Of a DNA stretch of 64,000 nt, positions 23,238 to 33,784 are shown piece by piece. How positions within the stretch are numbered: the stretch's first letter is position 1; each line of letters opens with the position of its first letter. The notes below the pieces were generated by a model that was given only the letters and a program-made list of their open reading frames with translations, ran no database searches and was not told where the DNA came from. Origin of the DNA: Actinomycetes bacterium (GTDB lineage Bacteria > Actinomycetota > Acidimicrobiia > Spongiisociales > ZC4RG35). The translations under genes were made by a program, and so were the position numbers. The DNA lies in the NCBI GenBank assembly GCA_003242515.2, contig QGUS02000002.1, positions 5,491-69,490 on the forward strand. The letters run 5' to 3'.

Positions 23238-24413
23238 TCAGGTGTCGACGAAAGAGCGCAGGCGGGCGGCCTCGACGGCCAGCTCCGCCACCTGGGCCAG
23301 GGCCCGGGCCCGGGCGGTGACCACGGCGGTCACGGGCGCCAGCAGCGCCTCCACCTCCCGGCGGGCCTCCCCGTACCGGGCGGGCTCGGCCTTGCGCCGT
23401 CGGAACAGCGACCGGGGCTCCTTGAAGGCGGCGACGACACGCTCCACCCCCTCGGGCAGGGCGGCGCCGGCCCTGACGATCCGCCGTCCCGGCTCCCCTC
23501 CCACCCGGCCAGCCACGTCGTCCACGAGCCTCGTGAGGGAGTCGACGGCCCCCTTGCGGTCACCGACCAGCACGCAGGCGACGGCGAAGTCGAGGGCGGG
23601 CGCCATCAGGTCCCGATAGCCGACGGGCTTGCCGATGGCGGCCTCCATCTCGGTGGCGGCCTGGCCCAGGTCGATGATCAGCTTGCGGTACAGGGTCTCC
23701 GGCCACCCGGCCAGGGAGGCGAGGGCGGCGAGCAGGTCGTCGACGCCGGTCGGCGGCAGGTCGGGCGGCACCGAGGTACGGATGATGCGCGGCTCGGTGA
23801 TCCCGTCCTCGCGGAGCGCCTCGGCCAGGTCCGCCTCGACTGCCGCCGCGTCGTCAGGGCCGAGGCGGTCCACCTGGTTGAGGACGAAGAGGAACTGCGA
23901 CTGATAGCCGGCCAGCTCCCGGAGGTAGCGGTGGTGCAGGGCCGCGTCCCGGTACTTCTCGGGATCGACCACCCACACCAGCACGTCGATGCGGGGGAGG
24001 ATCCGCTCCACCCGGTGCCGGTTGGCGACCACCACGGAGTCGGTGTCGGGCAGGTCGATGAGACAGAAGCCGGAATGGGAATGGGTCACCCGGGTGGCGA
24101 TGCCGAGGAGGTCGAGGTAGCCGTCGAAGGAGGACCCGTAGGCGCCCGGTATCGCGGCTACGGGCTCCGAGGTCGTCGGCCTGATCTGCCCCACCGGAGC
24201 GGCCTCGCTCCCGACCAGGGCGTTGAACAGGCTGGACTTGCCCGAACCGGTGCCGCCCGCCAGCGCTACCACCAGCGCGTCCTCGGGATGATCGAGCCGG
24301 ACCCGGGCGTCGTTGATCAGCCGGGCCACCGACTCCATCTCCCCGATGGCTTCCCGGGTCGCCGCCAGCGCCAGGTCGGCGGTGTCCAGGAGCCCGGTCA
24401 GGGCCTCATGCAT
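23238..24413 (-). CDS. P-loop GTPase, paralogue B of an overlapping pair (dynamin/YfjP-like, helical C-terminus)
   Basis: G1 GGTGSGKSSLFNAL, RPTTS (G2), DLPDTDS in the G3 position, NQVD (G4), then about 200 aa predicted helical. Confidence 0.7.
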   Translation of the reverse strand: MHEALTGLLDTADLALAATREAIGEMESVARLINDARVRLDHPEDALVVALAGGTGSGKSSLFNALVGSEAAPVGQIRPTTSEPVAAIPGAYGSSFDGYLDLLGIATRVTHSHSGFCLIDLPDTDSVVVANRHRVERILPRIDVLVWVVDPEKYRDAALHHRYLRELAGYQSQFLFVLNQVDRLGPDDAAAVEADLAEALREDGITEPRIIRTSVPPDLPPTGVDDLLAALASLAGWPETLYRKLIIDLGQAATEMEAAIGKPVGYRDLMAPALDFAVACVLVGDRKGAVDSLTRLVDDVAGRVGGEPGRRIVRAGAALPEGVERVVAAFKEPRSLFRRRKAEPARYGEARREVEALLAPVTAVVTARARALAQVAELAVEAARLRSFVDT

Positions 24414-25755
24414 CGACCAGCTGCCGCGCAGCCGCCAGGTCGGCGACGCGCTCCCGAAGCTCAGCGGGGTCGGATGCGCCCGTTCCGGTCTCCCACACCC
24501 CGGCCAGCCAGTCTCCGACCTCCCGCCACACCCCGGCCAGCCCGGCCTCGAGCCCGCCGCGGGCGTCGTCGCCCCACTCGGGGTCGGTGAGGGCGGCAGC
24601 CGCGCCCCTGGGGTCCATCGAGTCGAGCCATGACCGGACCGCCTTCTCGATCAGGGGCAGGGCCCGCTCCGACACGGCGGAGAGCCCGCCCGCCCGGGCG
24701 AGGAGGGCCTCGGCGTGGGTGAGCACGTGGTCGGTGAGCCTCCCGTGCACCTCCGCCACCAGGCCCGAGGCGAGCGTCTCGGTGGAGCCCCGGCCCAGAA
24801 CCCTCCCCAACAGGCTCTCGGCGCGGATGACGGCCCACTCGCGTGCGGGGTCAGCCTGGACGGAAGGGCCCGTGGCGAAGGCGTCGCGGAGCCGTTCCCC
24901 GAACCCGGCGGCCTCGGCGGCGACCGTCTCCAGGCGGTCCGCCAGGGAGGCGGCCTGGTCGAGGGTGTTGCCGAAGACCCGCTCCGCCGTGTCGGCGGCG
25001 TGCTCCCGGCGCGTCCTGGCGACCTTGTACAGGCGGAGCCGCAGCTCCCGCACCGCCGGGGCGGGGAGCCGTTGGGCGCCGGAGACGAGATGGTGCTCGG
25101 GCACCCGCACCGGGGCGACATCGAGCCCGGCTGCGCGGAGCCGCGCCGCGAAGTCGGTGACCACGGCGCTGCCGCCGGGACCGAGGCGGTTGATGACGGG
25201 AACGACGGTGGCGCCGCGGGACATGGCGCGACGCAGCACCTCCCAGGGCACGGCATCGGCGTAGCGGCTCGCGGAGACCACGAAGACGACGATGTCGGCC
25301 CGGTCGATCAGCGCCTCGGCGATCACGCGGTGCCGGGTCGCGGTGGAGTCGATGTCCGGTGTGTCCACGAAGGTCATGTGCTCGAGGACGGGCGCCAGGC
25401 CGGTCCTCATCTCGGCGTCCAGGTCGCCCGCCACCTCGGCTCCGTGGTCCGGGTCGCCGGTGAGGACGAGCGGACGGGAGGTGGTCGGGCGGAGCGCCCC
25501 CGCTGCGGTCAGCTCCAGCCCGGTGAGCGAGTTCACCAGCGTCGACTTGCCCGAACCGGTCGGCCCGGCGAAGACGACGAGCAGCGGCCTCTCGGGCTCG
25601 GCAAACCTCGGGATCAGATACTCACGGATCGCCGTCGTGACACGATCGCGGGTCACGACCAGGTCGTGTTGGCCGAGGACGGACGCAGCCCTCAGGTCGA
25701 GACCCTCCAGGGTCCCGGCCAGCCGTTCCAGCGCGGCTACGAGGGGCGCAGACAC
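24406..25755 (-). CDS. P-loop GTPase, paralogue A of an overlapping pair
   Basis: GTG start at 25755. G1 GPTGSGKSTLVNSL, RPTTS, DTPDIDS in the G3 position, VINRLG where G4 is expected, and a long helical C-terminus. It overlaps paralogue B by 8 nt. Confidence 0.7.
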   Translation of the reverse strand: MSAPLVAALERLAGTLEGLDLRAASVLGQHDLVVTRDRVTTAIREYLIPRFAEPERPLLVVFAGPTGSGKSTLVNSLTGLELTAAGALRPTTSRPLVLTGDPDHGAEVAGDLDAEMRTGLAPVLEHMTFVDTPDIDSTATRHRVIAEALIDRADIVVFVVSASRYADAVPWEVLRRAMSRGATVVPVINRLGPGGSAVVTDFAARLRAAGLDVAPVRVPEHHLVSGAQRLPAPAVRELRLRLYKVARTRREHAADTAERVFGNTLDQAASLADRLETVAAEAAGFGERLRDAFATGPSVQADPAREWAVIRAESLLGRVLGRGSTETLASGLVAEVHGRLTDHVLTHAEALLARAGGLSAVSERALPLIEKAVRSWLDSMDPRGAAAALTDPEWGDDARGGLEAGLAGVWREVGDWLAGVWETGTGASDPAELRERVADLAAARQLVDA

Positions 25756-27269: not shown

Positions 27270-28913
27270 ATGGTCACACCGGAGACGTCCGGCCGCGGCC
27301 GTCCCGGAGGGACCCGAGCCAGGGTGCTCGGCCTCGGGATGCTCTGCCTCGTCGCCGGAGCGGCGGCCATCTCCGGCCTGACCCGGCCCACCACACCGGA
27401 GACGGCGGACACCACTTCCACAACCGTTCCGCGCGTCGCCGCGCCGTCTACGACCACGACCCGGCCGCGGCCTCACATCCAGGCCCTCGGGCCGCCGATC
27501 GACTGGCTGTTCAGCAACACCTTCACGGACCGGCGGGTCGTCGGCGCCGCGGCGCGTGACGACGGGATCTACCTCTTCACATCTAGCCGCGCCCGCAAGG
27601 GCCTCGACGCGTGGAGGACCCGGGGCCGTGCCAGCTGGTCGCTCCTCGGCACCATCGCCGAGCTGTTCCGGCCCGAGGGCGTGCTCGAGGCGGGCGCCGG
27701 ATTCGTGGCCTACGGGACGGACCGGCTCGGACAGGCGGTGGTCTGGTCCTCGGCCGACGGGATCGCCTGGGACCGGCACCCCCTGCCCGTCGGAGACCAC
27801 GCTCCGAGCAGCGTCTGGTTCCAGGCCGCCACGACGCACGGCGATCTGGTCGTGCTCGCCGTCGTGGAGTGGCACGACCCGGTGCAGGCGGCCGTGAACC
27901 GGCGCTACCCCGGCTTCATGGGGTGGCTGTTCGAGGACCCGGCCGGGGAGACGCTGGTCGGGATCTCCGGGCCGCTCGGGATCGGGATGGCCGTGAGACC
28001 CGAAGACCTGGGCGTCGACCCGGCGAACCTTCCCGAGACGACGGGCCGCCTGACGATCCACTCGGGCCGACCGGAGGAGGGCTCCTGGCACCGGATCGTG
28101 GAGTCGGAGACCAGAGGGTTTCTGCCCCTCGTCCACCAGCTACTGCCCGGACCGGATGGGCGGATCTGGATGGTGGGCACGACGCCCAAGGCTTCGACCG
28201 ACGGCGTCACTTGGGAGCCGATCGCCCAGGTCCCCTATCCATCGTTGGTGCATCCCTGGAACGGCAGATACGTCCGAAAGGGCTGGGACATCTACGGCAA
28301 CCTCCGCATCGAGGTCTCCGAGGACCTGAGGAACTGGGAGCTGATGTTCCAGCCGTCGCTGACGGCCTTCCCGTGGTGCTGTGGCAGCGTCGAACGGTCC
28401 GAGACGCTCTTCACGGGACCCGGAGGGATCGGCTTCACCGGATTCGACGCGCACTTCGCGACCCAGGACAGGGGCGCCGTCATCCTGGCACGCGACGGTT
28501 ACCGCCTCGACCTCGCCGGCGGCATGCACGGGCCGGCCCTGTTCCGCGAGGACACGATGATCGCGGAGTACGTGCCCGAGCTCGCCGACCCGGACCGGCC
28601 GCTGTTCCGGGTCGAAGACGACACGGTGGTGTTCCTCGACCCTGACACGCGCGAGGATCTGGTGGCCTTCGCCATCGAGGAGATCGAGGAGCACGCCAAC
28701 GCCTGGGCGGACTCGTACCGAATGGTCCCGATCCGTGAGACCCACTTCCTGTTCTTCTCCCCGGACGGCGAGGACTGGACCAGCCACGACGTCAGCGGCA
28801 TGGTGCCACTGAGGGAAGAGGTCCGGTTGCTGATCGGCCGTGACCGGATCCTGCTCATGGGGGACGGCCCCGATGGGGCCGTGGTGTGGGTCGGAATTCC
28901 GCCGGGTCGATGA
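27270..28913 (+). CDS. Uncharacterised membrane-anchored protein with Asp-box-like motifs, paralogue 1
   Basis: 547 aa. Basic N-terminus, one TM helix (VLGLGMLCLVAGAAAISGL) and a Thr/Pro linker (TTSTTVP..STTTT). The ~450-aa ectodomain has S-x-D-G-x-x-W motifs (SADGIAW, STDGVTW, SPDGEDW). High GC3. Confidence 0.65.
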   Translation: MVTPETSGRGRPGGTRARVLGLGMLCLVAGAAAISGLTRPTTPETADTTSTTVPRVAAPSTTTTRPRPHIQALGPPIDWLFSNTFTDRRVVGAAARDDGIYLFTSSRARKGLDAWRTRGRASWSLLGTIAELFRPEGVLEAGAGFVAYGTDRLGQAVVWSSADGIAWDRHPLPVGDHAPSSVWFQAATTHGDLVVLAVVEWHDPVQAAVNRRYPGFMGWLFEDPAGETLVGISGPLGIGMAVRPEDLGVDPANLPETTGRLTIHSGRPEEGSWHRIVESETRGFLPLVHQLLPGPDGRIWMVGTTPKASTDGVTWEPIAQVPYPSLVHPWNGRYVRKGWDIYGNLRIEVSEDLRNWELMFQPSLTAFPWCCGSVERSETLFTGPGGIGFTGFDAHFATQDRGAVILARDGYRLDLAGGMHGPALFREDTMIAEYVPELADPDRPLFRVEDDTVVFLDPDTREDLVAFAIEEIEEHANAWADSYRMVPIRETHFLFFSPDGEDWTSHDVSGMVPLREEVRLLIGRDRILLMGDGPDGAVVWVGIPPGR

Positions 28914-28950
28914 CCGCTGCCCGATAGCCTGCACCCGACGGAGGTACCGG

Positions 28951-30609
28951 TTGACCGCCCCTATCCCGGACACACCTCATGAGACGGCGGGCCGGCAGAC
29001 ACCGCCGGGTCGGCGGAGACTCGCCCTGGGGGCCGCGCTGGCGCTGGTCGCAGGTGCGGCAGCCCTTTTCGCAGCGACCCAGCCGGGCCCGCCGCCGCAG
29101 GCGGTGGAGACCACCACGACGACCGTGGCCCCGCCTCTGGTCACCACCACGACGCTCGGTGTGGAGCTTCAGGGCGAGCCGCTCGAACTGCAGGTGGCGG
29201 CTGAGCTCGATCGGGTAGGGATCCCGAACCGGATCGCACAGCTCGCCAGTGGCGAACTGCTCCTCGTCGGCTACGAGTACGGGTGGGGGGAGAGCCGAGC
29301 GGTGCTCCTGTTGTCACCGGACGGGGACCGCTGGCGCGAGGCGGACCTGCCGCCGTTCTCGCCCACCAGCACCTCGGTCGAGGTGATCGATGGGCGGATC
29401 TACGCGTACGGGGCCGGCACCGACGGCCGGCCCGCGATCTGGATCTCGGACGACGCCAGGGAGTGGACCGTGATCCCGGTCGGCGAGGAGCCGGGCTGGA
29501 GGGTGTCGGCTGTCCTGATCGCCGACGACCTGGTCATGGCCGAGTTGTTCGAGGAGGAGGAATCACCGCTCACCGAGGAACTCGTCCGCCGCTTCGGGCC
29601 TTTGGGCCGACATGGCGGGACCGCCAGCGACGGCACGAACGTCTGGGTGATCGTGCACCTCCCGCTCGGGATCCAGATCGCCGAGTTGGCCCCCGAGGAA
29701 CTCGGCCTGACCCCGGAGGATCTGGAGTACCGGGAGAGCCAGACCAGGGTGATGGCCACCACCGACCTGGAACGCTGGTACGAGGCGACACGGCCCCCCG
29801 GAGATGCGACGCGGTGGTACTTCCGGGGCCCGGATGGCGCCCTGTGGGCGACGGCGCCGACCCCGGGGGAGGGACCAGACGCATATGCGACCCGCGACGG
29901 GATCACCTGGGAGCCGCGTCAGTTCGGTGACGGTGCGTCGGCCGGCCGGTTCGACGTCACCGCGATGGCGTTCGACGGCAGCTACCTCGTCGTCCGGGGT
30001 GCACAGGTCGTCTCGGGATCATTGCGGGAGCACCTCGCCCATCCCGACTGGTGGTGGTTCACGTCCGTGACGGGCAACGACCATGGCCTGGTCGCCGTTG
30101 CGTCGCTGCAATACGACCCGCAGCGGGAAACGCTCGTCCGGGAGAACCCGACCTACGAGAAGGCCCACCAGGGCCATCTGATCAGGCTGACGCTCACCGG
30201 CCTCGAGGTGCTGGATCCGGACTCCGGAGATGTGCTGTCGAGGATCGGAACCCGTGGTGGCTCAACGGACGCCCGCTACCGGTTCGACGTGCCCACCCAG
30301 ACCCTGCACCTCCTCGACGGAGAGGGGAGGGAGCTGGTCACCTTCACCGTCGAGGAACTTGCAACCCTCGAGCGGGAGTTCGACATCGCCTCGCAGCCCG
30401 AGGACCTGAAGCCCCCGACGGTCGTCCTGTTCTCCACCACCGATGCCTGCTCCTGGACCGTCCAGGACATCACCGGGACCGTCGGGAGGAGCTTCGTGAC
30501 CGGCAGCGGGGTGATCGACCGCACCCTCTACGTCCTGGCGGCACCCTGGCCGGAGCTGCAGCAGGGCCAGGTCCTCCGTGCGGAACTGCCAGACGGCTCC
30601 GGCTGCTGA
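28951..30609 (+). CDS. Uncharacterised membrane-anchored protein with Asp-box-like motifs, paralogue 2
   Basis: The start is set at TTG 28951, 6 nt after GGAGG (28940-28944). The track ATG at 28840 would overlap paralogue 1 by 74 nt. TM helix LALGAALALVAGAAALFA and a TTTTT linker. Motifs SPDGDRW, SDDAREW, TRDGITW, TTDACSW. Confidence 0.6.
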   Translation: MTAPIPDTPHETAGRQTPPGRRRLALGAALALVAGAAALFAATQPGPPPQAVETTTTTVAPPLVTTTTLGVELQGEPLELQVAAELDRVGIPNRIAQLASGELLLVGYEYGWGESRAVLLLSPDGDRWREADLPPFSPTSTSVEVIDGRIYAYGAGTDGRPAIWISDDAREWTVIPVGEEPGWRVSAVLIADDLVMAELFEEEESPLTEELVRRFGPLGRHGGTASDGTNVWVIVHLPLGIQIAELAPEELGLTPEDLEYRESQTRVMATTDLERWYEATRPPGDATRWYFRGPDGALWATAPTPGEGPDAYATRDGITWEPRQFGDGASAGRFDVTAMAFDGSYLVVRGAQVVSGSLREHLAHPDWWWFTSVTGNDHGLVAVASLQYDPQRETLVRENPTYEKAHQGHLIRLTLTGLEVLDPDSGDVLSRIGTRGGSTDARYRFDVPTQTLHLLDGEGRELVTFTVEELATLEREFDIASQPEDLKPPTVVLFSTTDACSWTVQDITGTVGRSFVTGSGVIDRTLYVLAAPWPELQQGQVLRAELPDGSGC

Positions 30610-30648
30610 TCCGGCCCTATCCGGCCGCGGCGGTACCGTGACGCCCGG

Positions 30649-32241
30649 ATGGGTGAGGCACCAATGCAGCACGACCGGCGGCATCGCCGCGCCGTCGCCG
30701 CAGGCGCGGGCCTCTTCGCCATTATCGCCGGGCTGCTCGCAGTGAGTGTCCTCACACAACCCGGGCCGGCCTCCACGACCACCACGGCCCCGGCCGGCAC
30801 CACGACCACCGCCGCGGTGGTGCCCGGCGGTGAGCTCCTCGCGTTCGAGACCATGGGTCTCGACGGCTCCCCCATCGTGATCGCACCGGTCCCCACCGGC
30901 GAGACGGTCGTCGTGGTCGCCTCACCCGACGGGTCGGTGGAGGCCATGGCCACCACCGGGGGCCCGTGGGAGCATCTCCCCTCCCCCGTGGAGGAGGGTG
31001 CCGTCGTAGCGGCGGGCGCCACCGTGCCCGACGCAGTCGTGCTCCACGGACACGACGCGTCCGGCGCAACCGCGATCTGGCTGAGCCGGGACGGCCGGTC
31101 CTGGCAGAAGGCCGTGGTCGACCCGTCCGGACGCCGCTCGGTGGTGGGTGTCGCCGGCGGCGGGGCCCTGATCTTCTCCTGGGGGCTGGAAGACGGCTGG
31201 AGGCTCCTCGACGCCGCGCTCGTGGAACGCATGGGCCCGGCAGGCCGCCGGTACCAGCTCTTCTCCCAGGGCGACGGCCCGGCGGAGGTGCTGGCCCAGA
31301 GCCCGCTCGGGCTCCCCATCGGCCGGTTCACCCTGGACGAGCTGGGAGTCGACCCGGCCGACCTCGAGACCGGTGTGCAGTGGGCCATGGCCAGCCGCGA
31401 CGGCGTGGAATGGACGGAGGCCGCCCTGCCCGACGACAGGTTCCCGTCCAGCCCCTTCGCCGGTGACGACGGGAGGGTCTACGACATCGACGTGGAGGGG
31501 CTCCTCCTCTCCACCGGAGACGGCCTCACCTGGGTGGAGGAGGCGGTCATAGGCGCACCCGGCATCGTCATCCAGCCGTGGCGGGGCTGGCTCTCCCACG
31601 GGCCGGACCCGATCCTCTGGGCCAGCCGGGACGCGTCCGCCTGGCGCGAGATCGACCTGGGCCCCCTGTTCGCCGAGCCCGAACTGTGGAAGCTGGGTGG
31701 CGTGGCTGCGGGCGACGCCGGACTGGCCGTGGTCGCGATGCAGCAGTCGGCGATCGGCGAGCCCCGGCCGGCGACCGTCGAGGCACGCTACGGGCAGCAC
31801 CTGGTCCGGGTCACCGACGCGGCCGTGGAGGTGGCCGCACCCGGCGGGGAGACCCTCGTGTCCATCCCCCGGACCGCAGTGGCGCCCGACCCCCGGGTGT
31901 CGTTCGACCCCGCGGCCCAGGAGGTGACCATCGGCGACGACGCGGGCACGCCGCTGATCACCCTGTCCATCGAGGAGCTGGGACGGCTCGAGGACGAACA
32001 CGAGGACGCCGCCATGGGAGCCGCTCCGGAGATCGCCTCCGCCCTCCTCACCTCCCCCGACGGCTGCGCCTGGACCACCCAGGAGCTCGGCGTCGGCCCC
32101 GGTCGGACCATCCACGACGTCCGCATCGTCGGCGCCCGGGTGTTCCTGGTGATCGGCGGGACCTTCCGGCTCGACCGCACCGAACTGTGGTGGGCCGACC
32201 TCCCGGCCGGCGGCGGGGCCGGGGACTGCCCGCTGGAATGA
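30649..32241 (+). CDS. Uncharacterised membrane-anchored protein with Asp-box-like motifs, paralogue 3
   Basis: 530 aa. TM helix AGAGLFAIIAGLLAVSVL and linker STTTTAPAGTTTT. Motifs SRDGRSW, SRDGVEW, TGDGLTW, SRDASAW, SPDGCAW. The stop overlaps the next start (ATGA, 32238-32241). Confidence 0.65.
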   Translation: MGEAPMQHDRRHRRAVAAGAGLFAIIAGLLAVSVLTQPGPASTTTTAPAGTTTTAAVVPGGELLAFETMGLDGSPIVIAPVPTGETVVVVASPDGSVEAMATTGGPWEHLPSPVEEGAVVAAGATVPDAVVLHGHDASGATAIWLSRDGRSWQKAVVDPSGRRSVVGVAGGGALIFSWGLEDGWRLLDAALVERMGPAGRRYQLFSQGDGPAEVLAQSPLGLPIGRFTLDELGVDPADLETGVQWAMASRDGVEWTEAALPDDRFPSSPFAGDDGRVYDIDVEGLLLSTGDGLTWVEEAVIGAPGIVIQPWRGWLSHGPDPILWASRDASAWREIDLGPLFAEPELWKLGGVAAGDAGLAVVAMQQSAIGEPRPATVEARYGQHLVRVTDAAVEVAAPGGETLVSIPRTAVAPDPRVSFDPAAQEVTIGDDAGTPLITLSIEELGRLEDEHEDAAMGAAPEIASALLTSPDGCAWTTQELGVGPGRTIHDVRIVGARVFLVIGGTFRLDRTELWWADLPAGGGAGDCPLE

Positions 32242-33134
32242 ACGCCAGCCCGCCCTTGTTCGCCAACGCGATGCCCGACCGCAACGCCCCGCGCTTCGGC
32301 GTCTTCGTCACGCCGTACAACGACCCACCGCGCCACGCCGTCGAACTGGCGAAGCATGCCGAACAGGTCGGGCTCGACCTGGTGACCTTCCAGGACCATC
32401 CCTACCAGCCCCGCTTCCACGACACGGTGGCCCTGCTCGCATGGACGGGCGCCGAGACGGAGCGGATCCGTCTGGCGAGCGCCGTCCACGTCCTCCCCCT
32501 GCGCCGGCCCGCGGTGCTGGCGAAGCAGGCCGCCACCATCGACCTCCTCAGCGGCGGACGCTTCGAGCTGGGCCTCGGGGCGGGCGGCTTCTGGGACGCG
32601 ATCGAGGCCATGGGCGGGCCGAGGCGGACGCCGGGTGAGGCCGTGGCGGCCCTGGACGAGGCCATCGACGTGATCCGGGGCCTGTGGGACACGGAGTCCC
32701 GCGAGCGCCTCGAGGCCGGTGGCCAGCACTACCGGGTGTCCGGGGCCAAACGCGGCCCGGCGCCGGCCCACGACATGGAGATCTGGGTCGGGGCCTACGG
32801 ACCGAAGATGATGGGCCTGATCGGACGGAAGGCAGACGGGTGGCTTCCCAGCATCGGCCGGGTGCCGTTCGACGAGTTGCGGGAGCGCGCCCGCCAGCTC
32901 GACGAGGCCGCGGTCGCCGCGGGACGGTCACCGGCGGAGATCCGGCGCATCGCCAACCTCGGCCTCGGAGAGTCCGCTTTCGACCCCGGGCGGCTGGCCG
33001 ACCTGATCGTGGCGCTGGCCCGTGAGCTGCGGTTCTCCACGTTCACCCTCGCCACCGATGATCCGGCCGTCATCGAGGCCTATGCGACACTGGTCGCCCC
33101 AAGAGCGAGAGCAGAGATCGGAGTGAATCCATGA
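32238..33134 (+). CDS. LLM-class flavin/F420-dependent oxidoreductase
   Basis: ATG at 32238. FGVFVTP...GLDLVTFQDHPY...DLLSGGRFELGLGAGGFW is a luciferase-like pattern. The 5' part of the 518-aa track ORF is an over-extension. Confidence 0.75.
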   Translation: MNASPPLFANAMPDRNAPRFGVFVTPYNDPPRHAVELAKHAEQVGLDLVTFQDHPYQPRFHDTVALLAWTGAETERIRLASAVHVLPLRRPAVLAKQAATIDLLSGGRFELGLGAGGFWDAIEAMGGPRRTPGEAVAALDEAIDVIRGLWDTESRERLEAGGQHYRVSGAKRGPAPAHDMEIWVGAYGPKMMGLIGRKADGWLPSIGRVPFDELRERARQLDEAAVAAGRSPAEIRRIANLGLGESAFDPGRLADLIVALARELRFSTFTLATDDPAVIEAYATLVAPRARAEIGVNP

Positions 33135-33784
33135 CCCAACCCGTCCGCATCGACGTCTGGTCCGACGTGGTCTGCCCCTGGTGTTACATCGGCAAGCGCC
33201 GGCTCGAGGCGGCGATCGACATGCTGCCCGGGGACCTGGCGGCGGACGGTGTCCAGGTCGTGTACCACAGCTTCCAGCTCGCCCCGGACATGCCCACCGA
33301 CGTGGACATGAGCGCCCTCGACTACCTGGTCGCCTACAAGGGCATCGACGAAGGCCGGGCCCGGGCCATGCAGCGGCACGTCACCGGCATCGCCGCCTCG
33401 GTGGGGCTCGCCTACGACATGGAGAACGCGAAGGCGGCCAACACCCACCTCGCCCATCAGTTGATCCACCACGCTGCCGAGCAGGGCGCCCAGGCCGAGG
33501 TCGCAGAGCGCGTCTTCCGGGCCCACTTCGCCGAGGCCCGCCATGTCGGCGACCTCGACACCCTGGTGGCCATCGCCGGCGAAGCCGGTCTGGAGCCGGA
33601 GGCGGCACGAGACGCCCTCGAGACCGGGATGTACGCGGACGCCGTGGAGATGGACAAGGACCTCGCCGCCCGCATCGGGATCCAGGGCGTCCCCTTCTTC
33701 GTCTTCGATGGGAAGCTGGCCGTCTCCGGGGCGCACGAGCCCGGGACGCTGGTCGATGCGATCCGCCAGGCCCGCCAGGTCTGA
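33131..33784 (+). CDS. DsbA/FrnE-like thiol oxidoreductase (no signal peptide)
   Basis: IDVWSDVVCPWCYIGKRRLE (CPWC active site) and GIQGVPFFVFDGKLAVSGA. ATGA overlap with the LLM stop. Confidence 0.8.
   Translation: MTQPVRIDVWSDVVCPWCYIGKRRLEAAIDMLPGDLAADGVQVVYHSFQLAPDMPTDVDMSALDYLVAYKGIDEGRARAMQRHVTGIAASVGLAYDMENAKAANTHLAHQLIHHAAEQGAQAEVAERVFRAHFAEARHVGDLDTLVAIAGEAGLEPEAARDALETGMYADAVEMDKDLAARIGIQGVPFFVFDGKLAVSGAHEPGTLVDAIRQARQV

What the first reader, a model, noticed from the sequence alone, without database searches (positions are those of the whole stretch)
27270..32241. Three tandem, diverged paralogues of an uncharacterised membrane-anchored protein with Asp-box-like motifs
Three consecutive plus-strand genes (547, ~552 and 530 aa; gaps 37 and 39 nt) share one architecture. 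Each has a short basic N-terminus, one TM helix, a Thr/Pro-rich stalk (TTTT runs) and a ~450-aa ectodomain. Each ectodomain contains 4-5 S-x-D-G-x-x-W motifs, for example SADGIAW, STDGVTW, SPDGDRW, TRDGITW, SRDGRSW, SRDGVEW and SPDGCAW. These are one residue shorter than the classical SxDxGxTW Asp-box and suggest a beta-propeller.

The paralogues also share non-propeller blocks in the same order:
- (E/D)(D/E)LG(V/L)(D/T)P(A/E)(N/D)L
- a module ending L(V/I)(A/T)(F/L)x(I/V)EE(I/L)

They are clearly homologous but strongly diverged, so the duplication is old and has been maintained. I cannot assign them to a named family. The array may encode a heteromeric or substrate-diversified cell-surface binding or hydrolase system.
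Basis: partly seen in the sequence, partly recalled or inferred. Interest (0 to 1): 0.7.

Follow-up and report, generated by a model that had tools for sequence, protein, structure and literature searches.

The report
Membrane-anchored beta-propeller paralogue array, Acidimicrobiia
Three neighbouring genes encode diverged copies of an unnamed, membrane-tethered cell-surface protein with a propeller-shaped outer domain, found so far only in Acidimicrobiia-type genomes; it most likely binds something rather than acting as an enzyme, and its ligand is unknown.

Summary
Three + strand genes (27270-28913, 28951-30609, 30649-32241) are real, homologous (about 22-32% identity) and share one architecture. 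Each has a short basic N-tail, one TM helix, a Thr/Pro-rich stalk and a ~470-aa all-beta ectodomain with 7-residue [ST]xD[GA]xxW motifs. Twelve of the 13 DNA matches to that motif in the 64-kb window lie in frame in these genes.

No Pfam, NCBIfam or PADLOC model matches. An exhaustive HMMER scan still finds a sizeable unnamed family (190 clusters at E<1e-30), mostly full-length proteins of about 520-630 aa. A VanW-anchored genome scan places the lineage in uncultured Acidimicrobiia. The genes sit in one syntenic, variable slot with 0, 1, 2 or 3 copies.

A deep-alignment AlphaFold model (pLDDT 87) is a beta-propeller. I read it as 7 blades with two family-specific insertions. Profile comparison shows that blades 1-5 are homologous to the widespread BNR-like "PF25852" propellers (99.5%). 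Residues conserved in at least 90% of members are motif or structural ones, so a hydrolase is unlikely.

Best reading: a non-catalytic, stalk-displayed binding propeller that has duplicated repeatedly. This is a new variant of a known kind, of moderate-to-low interest.

The parts
27270..28913 (+). Paralogue 1 (547 aa, 'A-type': no Cys pair, C-terminus ...VGIPPGR). Closest relative is P0002, which is copy 2 of locus L001.
   Evidence: ORF. GC3 0.90. The N-terminus MVTPET matches the family consensus MVxP(E/D). 36-38% identical to P0002. In-frame motifs at 27750, 28194 and 28758.
27315..27380 (+). Single TM helix / signal anchor of paralogue 1 (aa 16-37), preceded by a basic tail of about 15 aa.
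   Evidence: AlphaFold helix 16-37. Arg residues lie upstream. Some relatives carry a zinc ribbon N-terminal to this helix, which argues that the N-terminus is inside.
27381..27485 (+). Thr/Pro-rich, low-confidence stalk (aa 38-72). It starts with the conserved LTxP.
   Evidence: pLDDT about 50-62 with no secondary structure. TTTT runs are in the translation. P40 is invariant in a 20-sequence alignment.
27486..28910 (+). Beta-propeller ectodomain of paralogue 1 (aa 73-547).
   Evidence: About 37 beta-strands with block-mean pLDDT mostly 85-97. Foldseek gives probability 1.0 to propellers. hhalign gives 99.5% to PF25852-type propellers over blades 1-5.
27876..28040 (+). Family-specific insertion 1 (aa 203-257) between strands B and C of the inferred blade 3. 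It carries the signature PLG-x(9-10)-(E/D)LG.
   Evidence: Helices 204-212 and 244-247 plus three short strands. P235, L236, L247 and G248 are conserved in at least 90% of members. The region has no counterpart in the hhalign match to ordinary PF25852-type propellers.
28461..28724 (+). Family-specific insertion 2 (aa 398-485) between strands B and C of the inferred blade 6. It has seven short strands and a 14-residue helix, and contains TFLDPxTGExLVTFxxEEL.
   Evidence: Secondary structure. Conservation. No convincing PDB sequence relative: the only hit under E=0.01 is a designed propeller, with no stretch passing on its own.
28951..30609 (+). Paralogue 2 (552 aa from TTG 28951). Divergent 'B-type' with a Cys in the last motif (TTDACSW) and a C-terminal Cys. 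It lacks motif 5.
   Evidence: ORF. GGAGG at 28940-28944. Equals P0007. The exact protein is seen in 38 blocks of public assemblies. In-frame motifs at 29314, 29446, 29890 and 30436. Deletion shown.
30649..32241 (+). Paralogue 3 (530 aa; or 525 aa from ATG 30664). 'B-type' with SPDGCAW and a C-terminal ...GDCPLE. Counterpart of L001 copy 3.
   Evidence: ORF. Alternative start (P0008). 36% identity and 254 bits to L001:3834-5510. In-frame motifs at 31084, 31393, 31513, 31624 and 32053.

Best explanation
The three genes encode members of an unnamed protein family found so far in Acidimicrobiia-type (Actinomycetota) genomes and metagenomes.

Architecture: each protein is inserted with its short basic N-terminus in the cytoplasm. 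One TM helix holds it in the membrane. A disordered Thr/Pro-rich stalk of about 35 residues holds the ectodomain away from the membrane. The ectodomain is a BNR/Asp-box-like beta-propeller. I read it as seven blades, closed by the N-terminal strand, with a shortened [ST]xD[GA]xxW motif in the C-D loop of six blades. Two conserved, family-specific insertions sit in the B-C loops of blades 3 and 6, which is the face propellers normally use for ligands.

Function: the ectodomain acts as a non-catalytic binding module for an extracellular or envelope ligand, either a glycan or a protein/peptide. The insertions form the family-specific binding surface.

Evolution: the gene has duplicated repeatedly within one variable chromosomal slot. 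The window's three copies are therefore co-expressed, diverged variants with different specificities, not obligate subunits of one complex.

Shown: the genes are real, they are homologous, the propeller fold, the family and its synteny, and the lack of conserved catalytic residues. Inferred: topology, blade count, position of the insertions on the top face, binding function, and diversification.
For: Real coding genes and homology.

Family:
- 190 clusters at E<1e-30 and 741 at E<1e-10, mostly full-length matches to proteins of about 520-630 aa.
- No Pfam hit to a propeller family above threshold in 74 members.
- No NCBIfam hit for the three window proteins.

Lineage and synteny:
- VanW-anchored loci are Acidimicrobiia MAGs.
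- Family genes lie in the same slot with 3 copies (window, L001), 2 (L004/L005, L019) or 1 (L017, L023). L009, L011 and L020 have no ORF of family size between the PLP decarboxylase gene and VanW.

Fold:
- pLDDT 87.2, pTM 0.81, TM helix 16-37 and an all-beta ectodomain.
- Foldseek gives probability 1.0 to the Vps10p propellers of sortilin and SorLA, the sensor propellers of hybrid two-component systems, and phage tail-fibre propellers.
- hhalign gives 99.5%, E=1.7e-22 to PF25852-type propellers and skips insertion 1.

Non-catalytic:
- Positions conserved in at least 90% of members are W, G, S, P or L residues or the motif Asp.

Binding role by analogy:
- Homologous propellers are fused to Ser/Thr kinases in several proteins (P0163, P0177, P0179, P0182). 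I take these to be extracytoplasmic sensor domains, but their topology was not checked.
- One is the surface subunit BamH, which has no assigned catalytic role (bioRxiv 10.1101/2025.01.31.636011).

Topology:
- A basic N-tail, plus N-terminal zinc ribbons in six relatives.

Repeated duplication:
- P0003 and its neighbouring copy are 55% identical.
- The two L019 copies are 34% identical to each other, and each is closer to a gene in another MAG.
- ORF1 and ORF3 have counterparts in L001, whereas ORF2 is an extra divergent copy.

Co-expression:
- Gaps of 37 and 39 nt, no terminator-like site within the array, and 4-nt or 2-nt junctions in L019 and L001.
Against: - There is no experimental data and no ligand.
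- Neighbouring genes differ between lineages (luciferase-like oxidoreductase + DsbA, versus FAA hydrolase), so context gives no functional clue.
- Foldseek TM-scores to every solved structure are low (at most 0.29 relative to the query), so no global structural analogue supports a specific mechanism.
- The blade count and the 'top-face' position of the insertions come from the secondary-structure string and motif spacing, not from coordinates. A 9-10-bladed Vps10p-like ring is not excluded, because the insertion 2 profile weakly resembles propeller blades.
- Alignment at about 20% identity could hide a conserved catalytic residue.
- The conserved cytoplasmic MVxP(E/D) tip hints at a cytoplasmic partner, which fits signalling better than passive binding.
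- Cleavage of the hydrophobic segment as a signal peptide was not tested.
Confidence: 0.5

Rival explanations
1. Extracytoplasmic sensor or co-receptor. The propeller detects an envelope or environmental signal and passes it through the TM helix and the conserved cytoplasmic MVxP(E/D) tip (a zinc ribbon in some relatives) to a cytoplasmic partner such as a kinase, sigma/anti-sigma pair or protease.
For: - The extreme N-terminus MVxP(E/D)(T/G) and the LTxP after the TM helix are conserved among paralogues that are only about 20% identical.
- Six relatives carry an N-terminal CxxC...CxxC zinc ribbon, and one (P0128) has an 85-aa helical extension.
- Homologous PF25852-type propellers are fused to Ser/Thr kinases.
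- Foldseek hits include the sensor propellers of Bacteroides hybrid two-component systems.
Against: - The window proteins have only about 15-20 cytoplasmic residues and no output domain.
- No regulator, kinase or sigma factor is consistently adjacent.
- Copy number varies from 0 to 3 in a variable slot, which is unusual for a dedicated signalling pathway.
Confidence: 0.2
2. Obligate hetero-oligomeric envelope structure. The paralogues assemble into one complex, such as a surface lattice, S-layer-like coat or envelope-biogenesis scaffold, in the way propellers serve in BAM (BamB, BamH) or as the assembly factor Ycf48.
For: - Tight tandem arrangement, with a 4-nt overlap in L019 and a 2-nt gap in L001.
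- An A-type/B-type pair is conserved between the window and L001.
- The only significant PDB sequence relative is BamH, a subunit of a surface complex.
- VanW and dynamin-like GTPase genes lie nearby.
Against: - Single-copy relatives (L017, L023) and relatives with no ORF of family size in the slot (L009, L011, L020) exist in the same syntenic context.
- Duplications are of different ages in different lineages.
- Gene order differs: A-B-B in the window, B-A-B in L001.
Confidence: 0.15
3. Surface-tethered glycoside hydrolase of the sialidase, GH74, GH43 or GH32 type, with the paralogues acting on different glycans.
For: - Asp-box-like motifs are typical of sialidases and GH74.
- There are weak, non-significant profile hits to arabinanases and sialidases (E about 0.01-0.05).
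- Foldseek lists GH43 and GH32 propellers among many others.
Against: - No Pfam or NCBIfam glycosidase model matches any of the 74 members scanned.
- No Arg, Glu, Tyr, His or non-motif Asp is conserved at 90% or more in alignments of 141, 74 or 20 sequences.
- No sugar transporter or other CAZyme gene was seen in the neighbourhood.
Confidence: 0.08

Closest known systems
PF25852-type BNR-like beta-propeller proteins. The accession appears in the precomputed Pfam annotations of distant hits; its name is not available in the local Pfam copy. Examples are P0005 and the Spirillospora albida hypothetical protein P0157.
   Same: The blades are homologous and carry the same WxSxDGxxW motif. hhalign gives 99.5%, E=1.7e-22 over blades 1-5. 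P0005 starts with a lipoprotein-type signal, and several others are fused to kinase domains.
   Different: These proteins are plain repeats of the blade. They lack the PLG...ELG insertion and the TFLDPxTGExLVTF module, the conserved MVxP(E/D) N-terminus, and the TM + Thr-stalk arrangement. True members of the window family carry no PF25852 annotation.
BamH (Bt3727, DUF6242), the surface lipoprotein of the Bacteroidetes BAM complex; PDB 9HIS/9HJ3 chain H
   Same: It is the only significant PDB sequence match (E=2.3e-7), over SxDGxxW-type blades. It is a surface-exposed propeller with no assigned catalytic role (bioRxiv 10.1101/2025.01.31.636011).
   Different: BamH is a 6-bladed propeller with an N-terminal Ig-like domain, is lipid-anchored in an outer membrane, and is confined to Bacteroidetes (mostly the Bacteroidia class). 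Pfam DUF6242 does not match the window proteins. Only about two blades align.
Vps10p domain of sortilin and SorLA (Pfam Sortilin-Vps10, PF15902)
   Same: These are the top Foldseek PDB hits (probability 1.0, E about 3e-8). They are Asp-box-type blades in the ectodomain of a single-pass membrane protein that binds peptide ligands.
   Different: TM-scores are only 0.20-0.26 with rmsd about 20 A. The Vps10p propeller has 10 blades followed by a 10CC module and a C-terminal TM helix (type I topology; from established knowledge). No window ORF reaches E<=1 for PF15902.
Classical Asp-box (BNR) propellers: bacterial sialidases (BNR_2, PF13088) and Ycf48/HCF136 (PSII_BNR, PF14870)
   Same: A repeated Ser-x-Asp...Trp motif occurs once per blade. 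Ycf48 is a 7-bladed, non-catalytic assembly factor.
   Different: The motif here is one residue shorter: SxDGxxW against SxDxGxTW. There are no Pfam matches. No sialidase catalytic residues are conserved.

Membership tests
Unnamed Acidimicrobiia family defined here (alignments A3/A8) | Full-length match to the family profile. The architecture is MVxP(E/D) N-tip, TM helix, LTxP + Thr-rich stalk, and a propeller with six motif positions. | tested here: met
   All three ORFs match the profile end to end (P0001, P0007, P0008: E=2e-194 to 1.6e-175; they were part of the query). Independent members such as P0009-P0035 match at E=1e-77 to 1e-123 over profile positions 1-560. The N-tip consensus is clear in ORF1 (MVTPET), weaker in ORF2 (MTAPIPDT) and absent in ORF3. 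ORF2 lacks motif 5.
Unnamed Acidimicrobiia family defined here (alignments A3/A8) | Two conserved insertions: PLG-x(9-10)-(E/D)LG, and TFxDPxTGExLxTFxxxEL followed by a helix. | tested here: met
   Both are present in ORF1, ORF2 and ORF3. P235, L236, L247 and G248 are conserved in at least 90% of members.
Sialidase / BNR_2 (PF13088) | Score above the Pfam gathering threshold. | tested here: not met
   No hit at E<=1 for the three ORFs. None of the 74 members hits at E<=0.01.
Sialidase / BNR_2 (PF13088) | Classical 8-residue Asp-box SxDxGxTW. | tested here: not met
   All copies use the 7-residue form [ST]xD[GA]xxW. The one apparent exception, LSTGDGLTW in ORF3, also fits the 7-residue form as TGDGLTW.
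Sialidase / BNR_2 (PF13088) | Conserved catalytic residues (Arg triad, Tyr/Glu nucleophile pair, acid/base Asp). | tested here: not met
   No Arg, Tyr, Glu or non-motif Asp is conserved at 90% or more in alignments of 141, 74 or 20 sequences.
Ycf48/HCF136 (PSII_BNR, PF14870) | Score above the Pfam gathering threshold. | tested here: not met
   No hit. Only a distant PF25852-type protein, P0174, hits PSII_BNR.
Ycf48/HCF136 (PSII_BNR, PF14870) | Seven-bladed propeller. | tested here: inconclusive
   Seven blades are inferred from strand order and motif spacing in the model. Coordinates could not be inspected after the scripting machine was lost.
Sortilin Vps10p domain (PF15902) | Pfam match and a global fold match to the 10-bladed propeller. 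| tested here: not met
   No Pfam hit. Foldseek probability is 1.0, but TM-score is 0.20-0.26 and rmsd about 20 A.
DUF6242 / BamH (PF19755) | Pfam match; N-terminal Ig-like domain plus a 6-bladed propeller; lipoprotein. | tested here: not met
   No Pfam hit. The PDB profile match covers only about two blades. The window proteins have a TM helix and no lipobox or Ig-like domain.
PF25852-type propeller | Homology of the blades. | tested here: met
   hhalign probability 99.5%, E=1.7e-22, with 232 aligned columns.
PF25852-type propeller | Reaches that Pfam model's own threshold. | not testable with these tools
   The model is not in the local Pfam copy. The precomputed annotations list '-' for the family members P0001-P0004 and P0097.

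The most novel reading that the evidence does not exclude
The family could be an Acidimicrobiia-specific surface-display system. In this reading a conserved membrane module (the MVxP(E/D) cytoplasmic tip, TM helix, LTxP and a possibly O-glycosylated Thr stalk) presents fast-evolving propeller 'heads' with a new architecture of two capping insertions. The copies would be gained and lost in a genomic hot spot. That would make them a major variable determinant of what these uncultured bacteria bind, such as nutrient polymers, neighbouring cells or phages, with the conserved cytoplasmic tip coupling them to an unknown partner.
Probability: 0.1. Interest if true: 0.55.

Novelty: new variant of a known kind. 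Interest (0 to 1): 0.3.

Why it matters
Acidimicrobiia are widespread but mostly uncultured, and little is known about their cell surface. This work defines a sizeable protein family with no database model: 190 clusters (50% identity) at E<1e-30, and 741 at E<1e-10. It comes with a confident structural model, a clear signature and a defined syntenic slot. Together these give an entry point for a Pfam/NCBIfam model and for surface proteomics or ligand screening. The fold class and the general logic of a tethered, non-catalytic propeller are familiar, so the finding is useful annotation rather than a conceptual surprise.

Tried and rejected
- The word-index homologue search with the three copies found only four true relatives. 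The exhaustive HMMER scan was needed to see the family.
- The first AlphaFold run, with 6 sequences, gave pLDDT 72. It was superseded by the 141-sequence run.
The scan with A5 found nothing. Lineage was obtained by anchoring on the neighbouring VanW gene.
- A viral-contig scan found no relative.
- PADLOC gave no hit for the three proteins, so I rejected a defence system.
- Rfam and tRNA scans of the window were empty.
- The promoter/terminator scan was uninformative, with 0 promoter-like sites and no terminator-like site within the array.
- A profile of insertion 2 alone found no convincing PDB relative. Its best hit was a designed propeller with no stretch passing on its own, and lectin hits were at E>0.1.
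- Literature searches for DUF6242, PF25852 and Acidimicrobiia propellers found nothing on this family.
- Twin-arginine export was considered. Some copies have RR before the helix, but it is not conserved, so I rejected it as a family feature.
- A lipoprotein anchor was rejected because there is no conserved lipobox Cys.
- The scripting machine was lost. A tree, per-column statistics and inspection of model coordinates could therefore not be done.

Full report
**Observation**

The window is about 71% G+C. Three + strand ORFs lie at 27270-28913 (547 aa), 28840-30609 and 30649-32241 (530 aa). Their third-position G+C is 0.86-0.91, like the neighbouring genes, so these are the coding frames.

- ORF2 most likely starts at TTG 28951 (552 aa). 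A GGAGG sits 6 nt upstream, and an independent gene call in the public protein library has exactly this start (P0007).
- ORF3 may start at ATG 30664 (525 aa, P0008), which follows GGTGAGG.
- ORF1's start at 27270 is supported because MVTPET matches the N-terminus of relatives.

The three proteins align end to end. Identity to ORF1 is 32% and 26% in the three-way alignment, and 25% and 22% in a six-sequence alignment. BLASTP of ORF2 against ORF3 gives 28% identity and E=1e-27.

The DNA pattern encoding [ST]xD[GA]xxW occurs 13 times in the whole 64-kb window, against 4.6 expected and a maximum of 10 in 100 shuffles. Twelve of these lie in these three genes, all in frame.

**Family and relatives**

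Pfam, NCBIfam and PADLOC give no significant match for any of the three proteins. The word-indexed search of 5.8 billion proteins found only four true relatives, all unnamed and from metagenomes.

An exhaustive HMMER scan of 1.84 billion cluster representatives found 190 clusters at E<1e-30 and 741 at E<1e-10. Most of the best 150 are proteins of about 520-630 aa that match the profile from end to end. Of 74 members scanned individually against Pfam, none matched a propeller family above threshold. Two of them had an N-terminal zinc ribbon. The family is therefore real and sizeable, and it has no Pfam model; NCBIfam found nothing for the three window proteins.

**Lineage, synteny and copy number**

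Scanning one genome per GTDB species with patterns from the ORF1 subgroup found nothing. Anchoring on the neighbouring VanW gene gave 15 loci. Thirteen are labelled Acidimicrobiia or Acidimicrobiaceae MAGs, one Actinomycetota, and one Acidobacteriota (a bin label that may be wrong).

The surrounding gene order is conserved in these loci and in metagenome contigs: PLP-dependent decarboxylase, a variable slot, peptidase C26, PD-(D/E)XK nuclease, VanW, pyruvate kinase, GatB and GatA. Family genes occupy the variable slot in differing numbers:

| Copies | Loci |
|---|---|
| 3 | window; L001 (B-A-B order; first copy called from an internal start) |
| 2 | L004/L005; L019 (4-nt overlap between the copies) |
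| 1 | L017; L023 |
| at least 1 | L010, L012, L016 (truncated contigs) |
| no ORF of family size | L009, L011, L020 (L009 and L011 have a P450 gene there) |

The genes flanking the array differ. The window and L001 have a luciferase-like oxidoreductase and a DsbA-like gene. L004, L005 and L023 have a FAA hydrolase, with P450 and DUF222 genes upstream. There is therefore no conserved functional partner, and the slot behaves as a variable region.

**History of the duplications**

- ORF1 is closest to P0002, which is L001 copy 2 (36-38% identity).
- ORF3 is closest to L001 copy 3 (36%, 254 bits).
- ORF2 is a more divergent copy of the ORF3 type: 31% to L001 copy 3, 28% to ORF3 and 26% to L001 copy 1.
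- The ORF2/ORF3 type ('B') has a Cys in the last motif and another near the C-terminus. The ORF1 type ('A') has neither.
- In another clade the two neighbouring copies are 55% identical.
- In L019 the two copies are 34% identical to each other, and each is closer to a gene in a different MAG.

Duplication has therefore happened several times at different depths, and single-copy genomes exist. This fits diversification better than an obligate heteromer.

**Structure**

With a 141-sequence alignment, AlphaFold2 models ORF1 at mean pLDDT 87.2 and pTM 0.81.

- Residues 16-37 form a helix.
- Residues 38-72 have low confidence and no secondary structure. This is the Thr/Pro stalk.
- Residues 78-543 hold about 37 beta-strands and three helices (204-212, 244-247, 469-482).

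I placed each [ST]xD[GA]xxW position (W123, W167, W273, W315, W356, W503) between strands C and D of a blade, as in Asp-box propellers (established knowledge). This gives seven four-stranded blades, with the N-terminal strand 78-86 completing the last blade. It also gives two insertions in B-C loops:

- Residues 203-257 in blade 3, carrying PLG...(E/D)LG.
- Residues 398-485 in blade 6, with seven short strands and a helix, carrying TFLDPxTGExLVTFxxEEL.

B-C loops lie on the 'top' face of propellers, which is the usual ligand face (established knowledge), so both insertions probably decorate that face. This reading is an inference from the secondary-structure string. The scripting machine was lost, so I could not inspect coordinates. 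A larger ring is not excluded, because the insertion 2 profile weakly resembles propeller blades.

Foldseek gives probability 1.0 but TM-scores of at most 0.29 (relative to the query) against the PDB. The best hits are the Vps10p propellers of sortilin and SorLA, the sensor propellers of Bacteroides hybrid two-component systems, and WD40-type and glycoside-hydrolase propellers. Against viral models, query-normalised TM-scores reach at most 0.39; the hits are phage tail-fibre propellers and DUF6242-like propellers. The blade type is familiar, but no solved structure shares the overall architecture.

**Relation to known families**

- A profile search of PDB sequences finds one significant relative, 9HIS chain H (E=2.3e-7), aligned over about two blades. 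This is BamH (Bt3727, DUF6242), a surface lipoprotein of the Bacteroides BAM complex with a 6-bladed propeller of unknown role (bioRxiv 10.1101/2025.01.31.636011).
- More distant hits in the protein library carry the precomputed annotation PF25852, often together with BNR_2, Sortilin-Vps10 or PSII_BNR. Several are fused to Ser/Thr kinase domains.
- Profile-profile comparison of the family with nine such proteins gives 99.5% probability and E=1.7e-22 over blades 1-5. The alignment skips insertion 1.

The propeller core therefore belongs to the BNR/Asp-box-like superfamily. The insertions, the N-terminal module and the 7-residue motif define a separate family.

**Function**

In alignments of 141, 74 and 20 members, the positions conserved at 90% or more are Trp, Gly, Ser, Pro or Leu residues, or the Asp of the repeated motif. 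They also include the PLG...LG signature and P40 just after the TM helix. No Arg, Glu, His, Tyr, Lys or non-motif Asp is conserved, which argues against a shared active site.

Related propellers are found fused to kinase domains, in a surface complex subunit (BamH) and in phage receptor-binding fibres. I therefore favour a non-catalytic, stalk-displayed binding module, with repeated duplication producing diverged specificities (confidence about 0.5).

The rivals are:

- A sensor or co-receptor that uses the conserved MVxP(E/D) cytoplasmic tip. Six relatives have an N-terminal zinc ribbon instead. Confidence about 0.2.
- An obligate heteromeric envelope structure. Confidence about 0.15.
- A tethered glycoside hydrolase. 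Confidence about 0.08.

Topology (N-terminus inside, propeller outside) is inferred from the basic N-tail, the zinc-ribbon relatives and the possible disulfide pair in B-type copies. It was not tested with a predictor.

**Verdict**

This is a previously unmodelled, lineage-restricted family within a well-known fold class. I rate it a new variant of a known kind. It is useful for annotation and as a handle on the Acidimicrobiia cell surface, but it would not surprise a specialist. Interest is 0.3.

Noticed in passing
window 23238-24413 (-) and 24406-25755 (-): Two adjacent, overlapping genes encode dynamin-like GTPases (Pfam Dynamin_N and MMR_HSR1). They match the LeoA model weakly in PADLOC (E=3e-10 and 2e-6). 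They look like a bacterial dynamin-like protein pair lying upstream of the array and divergent from it.
   Followed up: partly
window 32238-33134 (+), 33131-33784 (+): A luciferase-like monooxygenase gene overlaps the ORF3 stop codon by 4 nt and is followed, with another 4-nt overlap, by a DsbA-like thioredoxin-fold gene. This suggests co-transcription with the array. In L004, L005 and L023 a FAA hydrolase occupies this position instead, so the link is not conserved.
   Followed up: partly
L004 5841-8513 versus L005 2947-4743 + 4756-5631: In L004 the second paralogue is called as an 890-aa fusion with a FAA hydrolase. The near-identical locus L005 has two separate genes (598 + 291 aa). The fusion is probably a frameshift or assembly artefact rather than a real fusion.
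   Followed up: no
L004 803-4027, L023 3937-6682, L009 5283-6554, L011 5762-7102: In relatives the slot between the PLP decarboxylase and peptidase C26 also holds cytochrome P450 and DUF222 genes. L009 and L011 have a P450 gene and no ORF of family size. The slot behaves as a variable region.
   Followed up: partly
P0058, P0109, P0125, P0132, P0148, P0153 (N-termini); P0128 residues 1-85: A subset of family members has a CxxC...CxxC zinc ribbon N-terminal to the TM helix. One member (P0128) has an 85-residue helical N-terminal extension. Either could couple the propeller to a cytoplasmic partner.
   Followed up: partly
window 27270-27284; 27378-27389 (ORF1 aa 1-5 and 37-40), and the equivalent positions in relatives: The extreme N-terminus MVxP(E/D)(T/G) and an LTxP motif directly after the TM helix are conserved among paralogues that are only about 20% identical overall. 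The MVxP tip is clear in ORF1, weaker in ORF2 and absent in ORF3. No explanation was found for either motif.
   Followed up: no
window 30445-30447 and 30604-30606 (ORF2); 32065-32067 and 32227-32229 (ORF3): B-type copies (ORF2, ORF3, P0018, P0039, L001 copy 1) have one Cys inside the last SxD(G/A)CxW motif and one Cys a few residues from the C-terminus. A-type copies have neither. The pair might form a disulfide that locks the C-terminal strand, which would fit an extracytoplasmic location.
   Followed up: no
window ~30000-30060 (ORF2, around aa 350-370): ORF2 lacks about 14 residues that in ORF1, ORF3 and most relatives contain the fifth SxDGxxW motif. One blade of this copy is therefore probably remodelled.
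   Followed up: no
L024, L025, L026 (Logan assemblies SRR10980620, SRR27151691, SRR15110392): The exact ORF2 protein occurs in 38 blocks of public sequencing-run assemblies with the same three-gene arrangement. The source organism has therefore been sampled many times, although it is not a GTDB species representative detectable with the patterns used.
   Followed up: no
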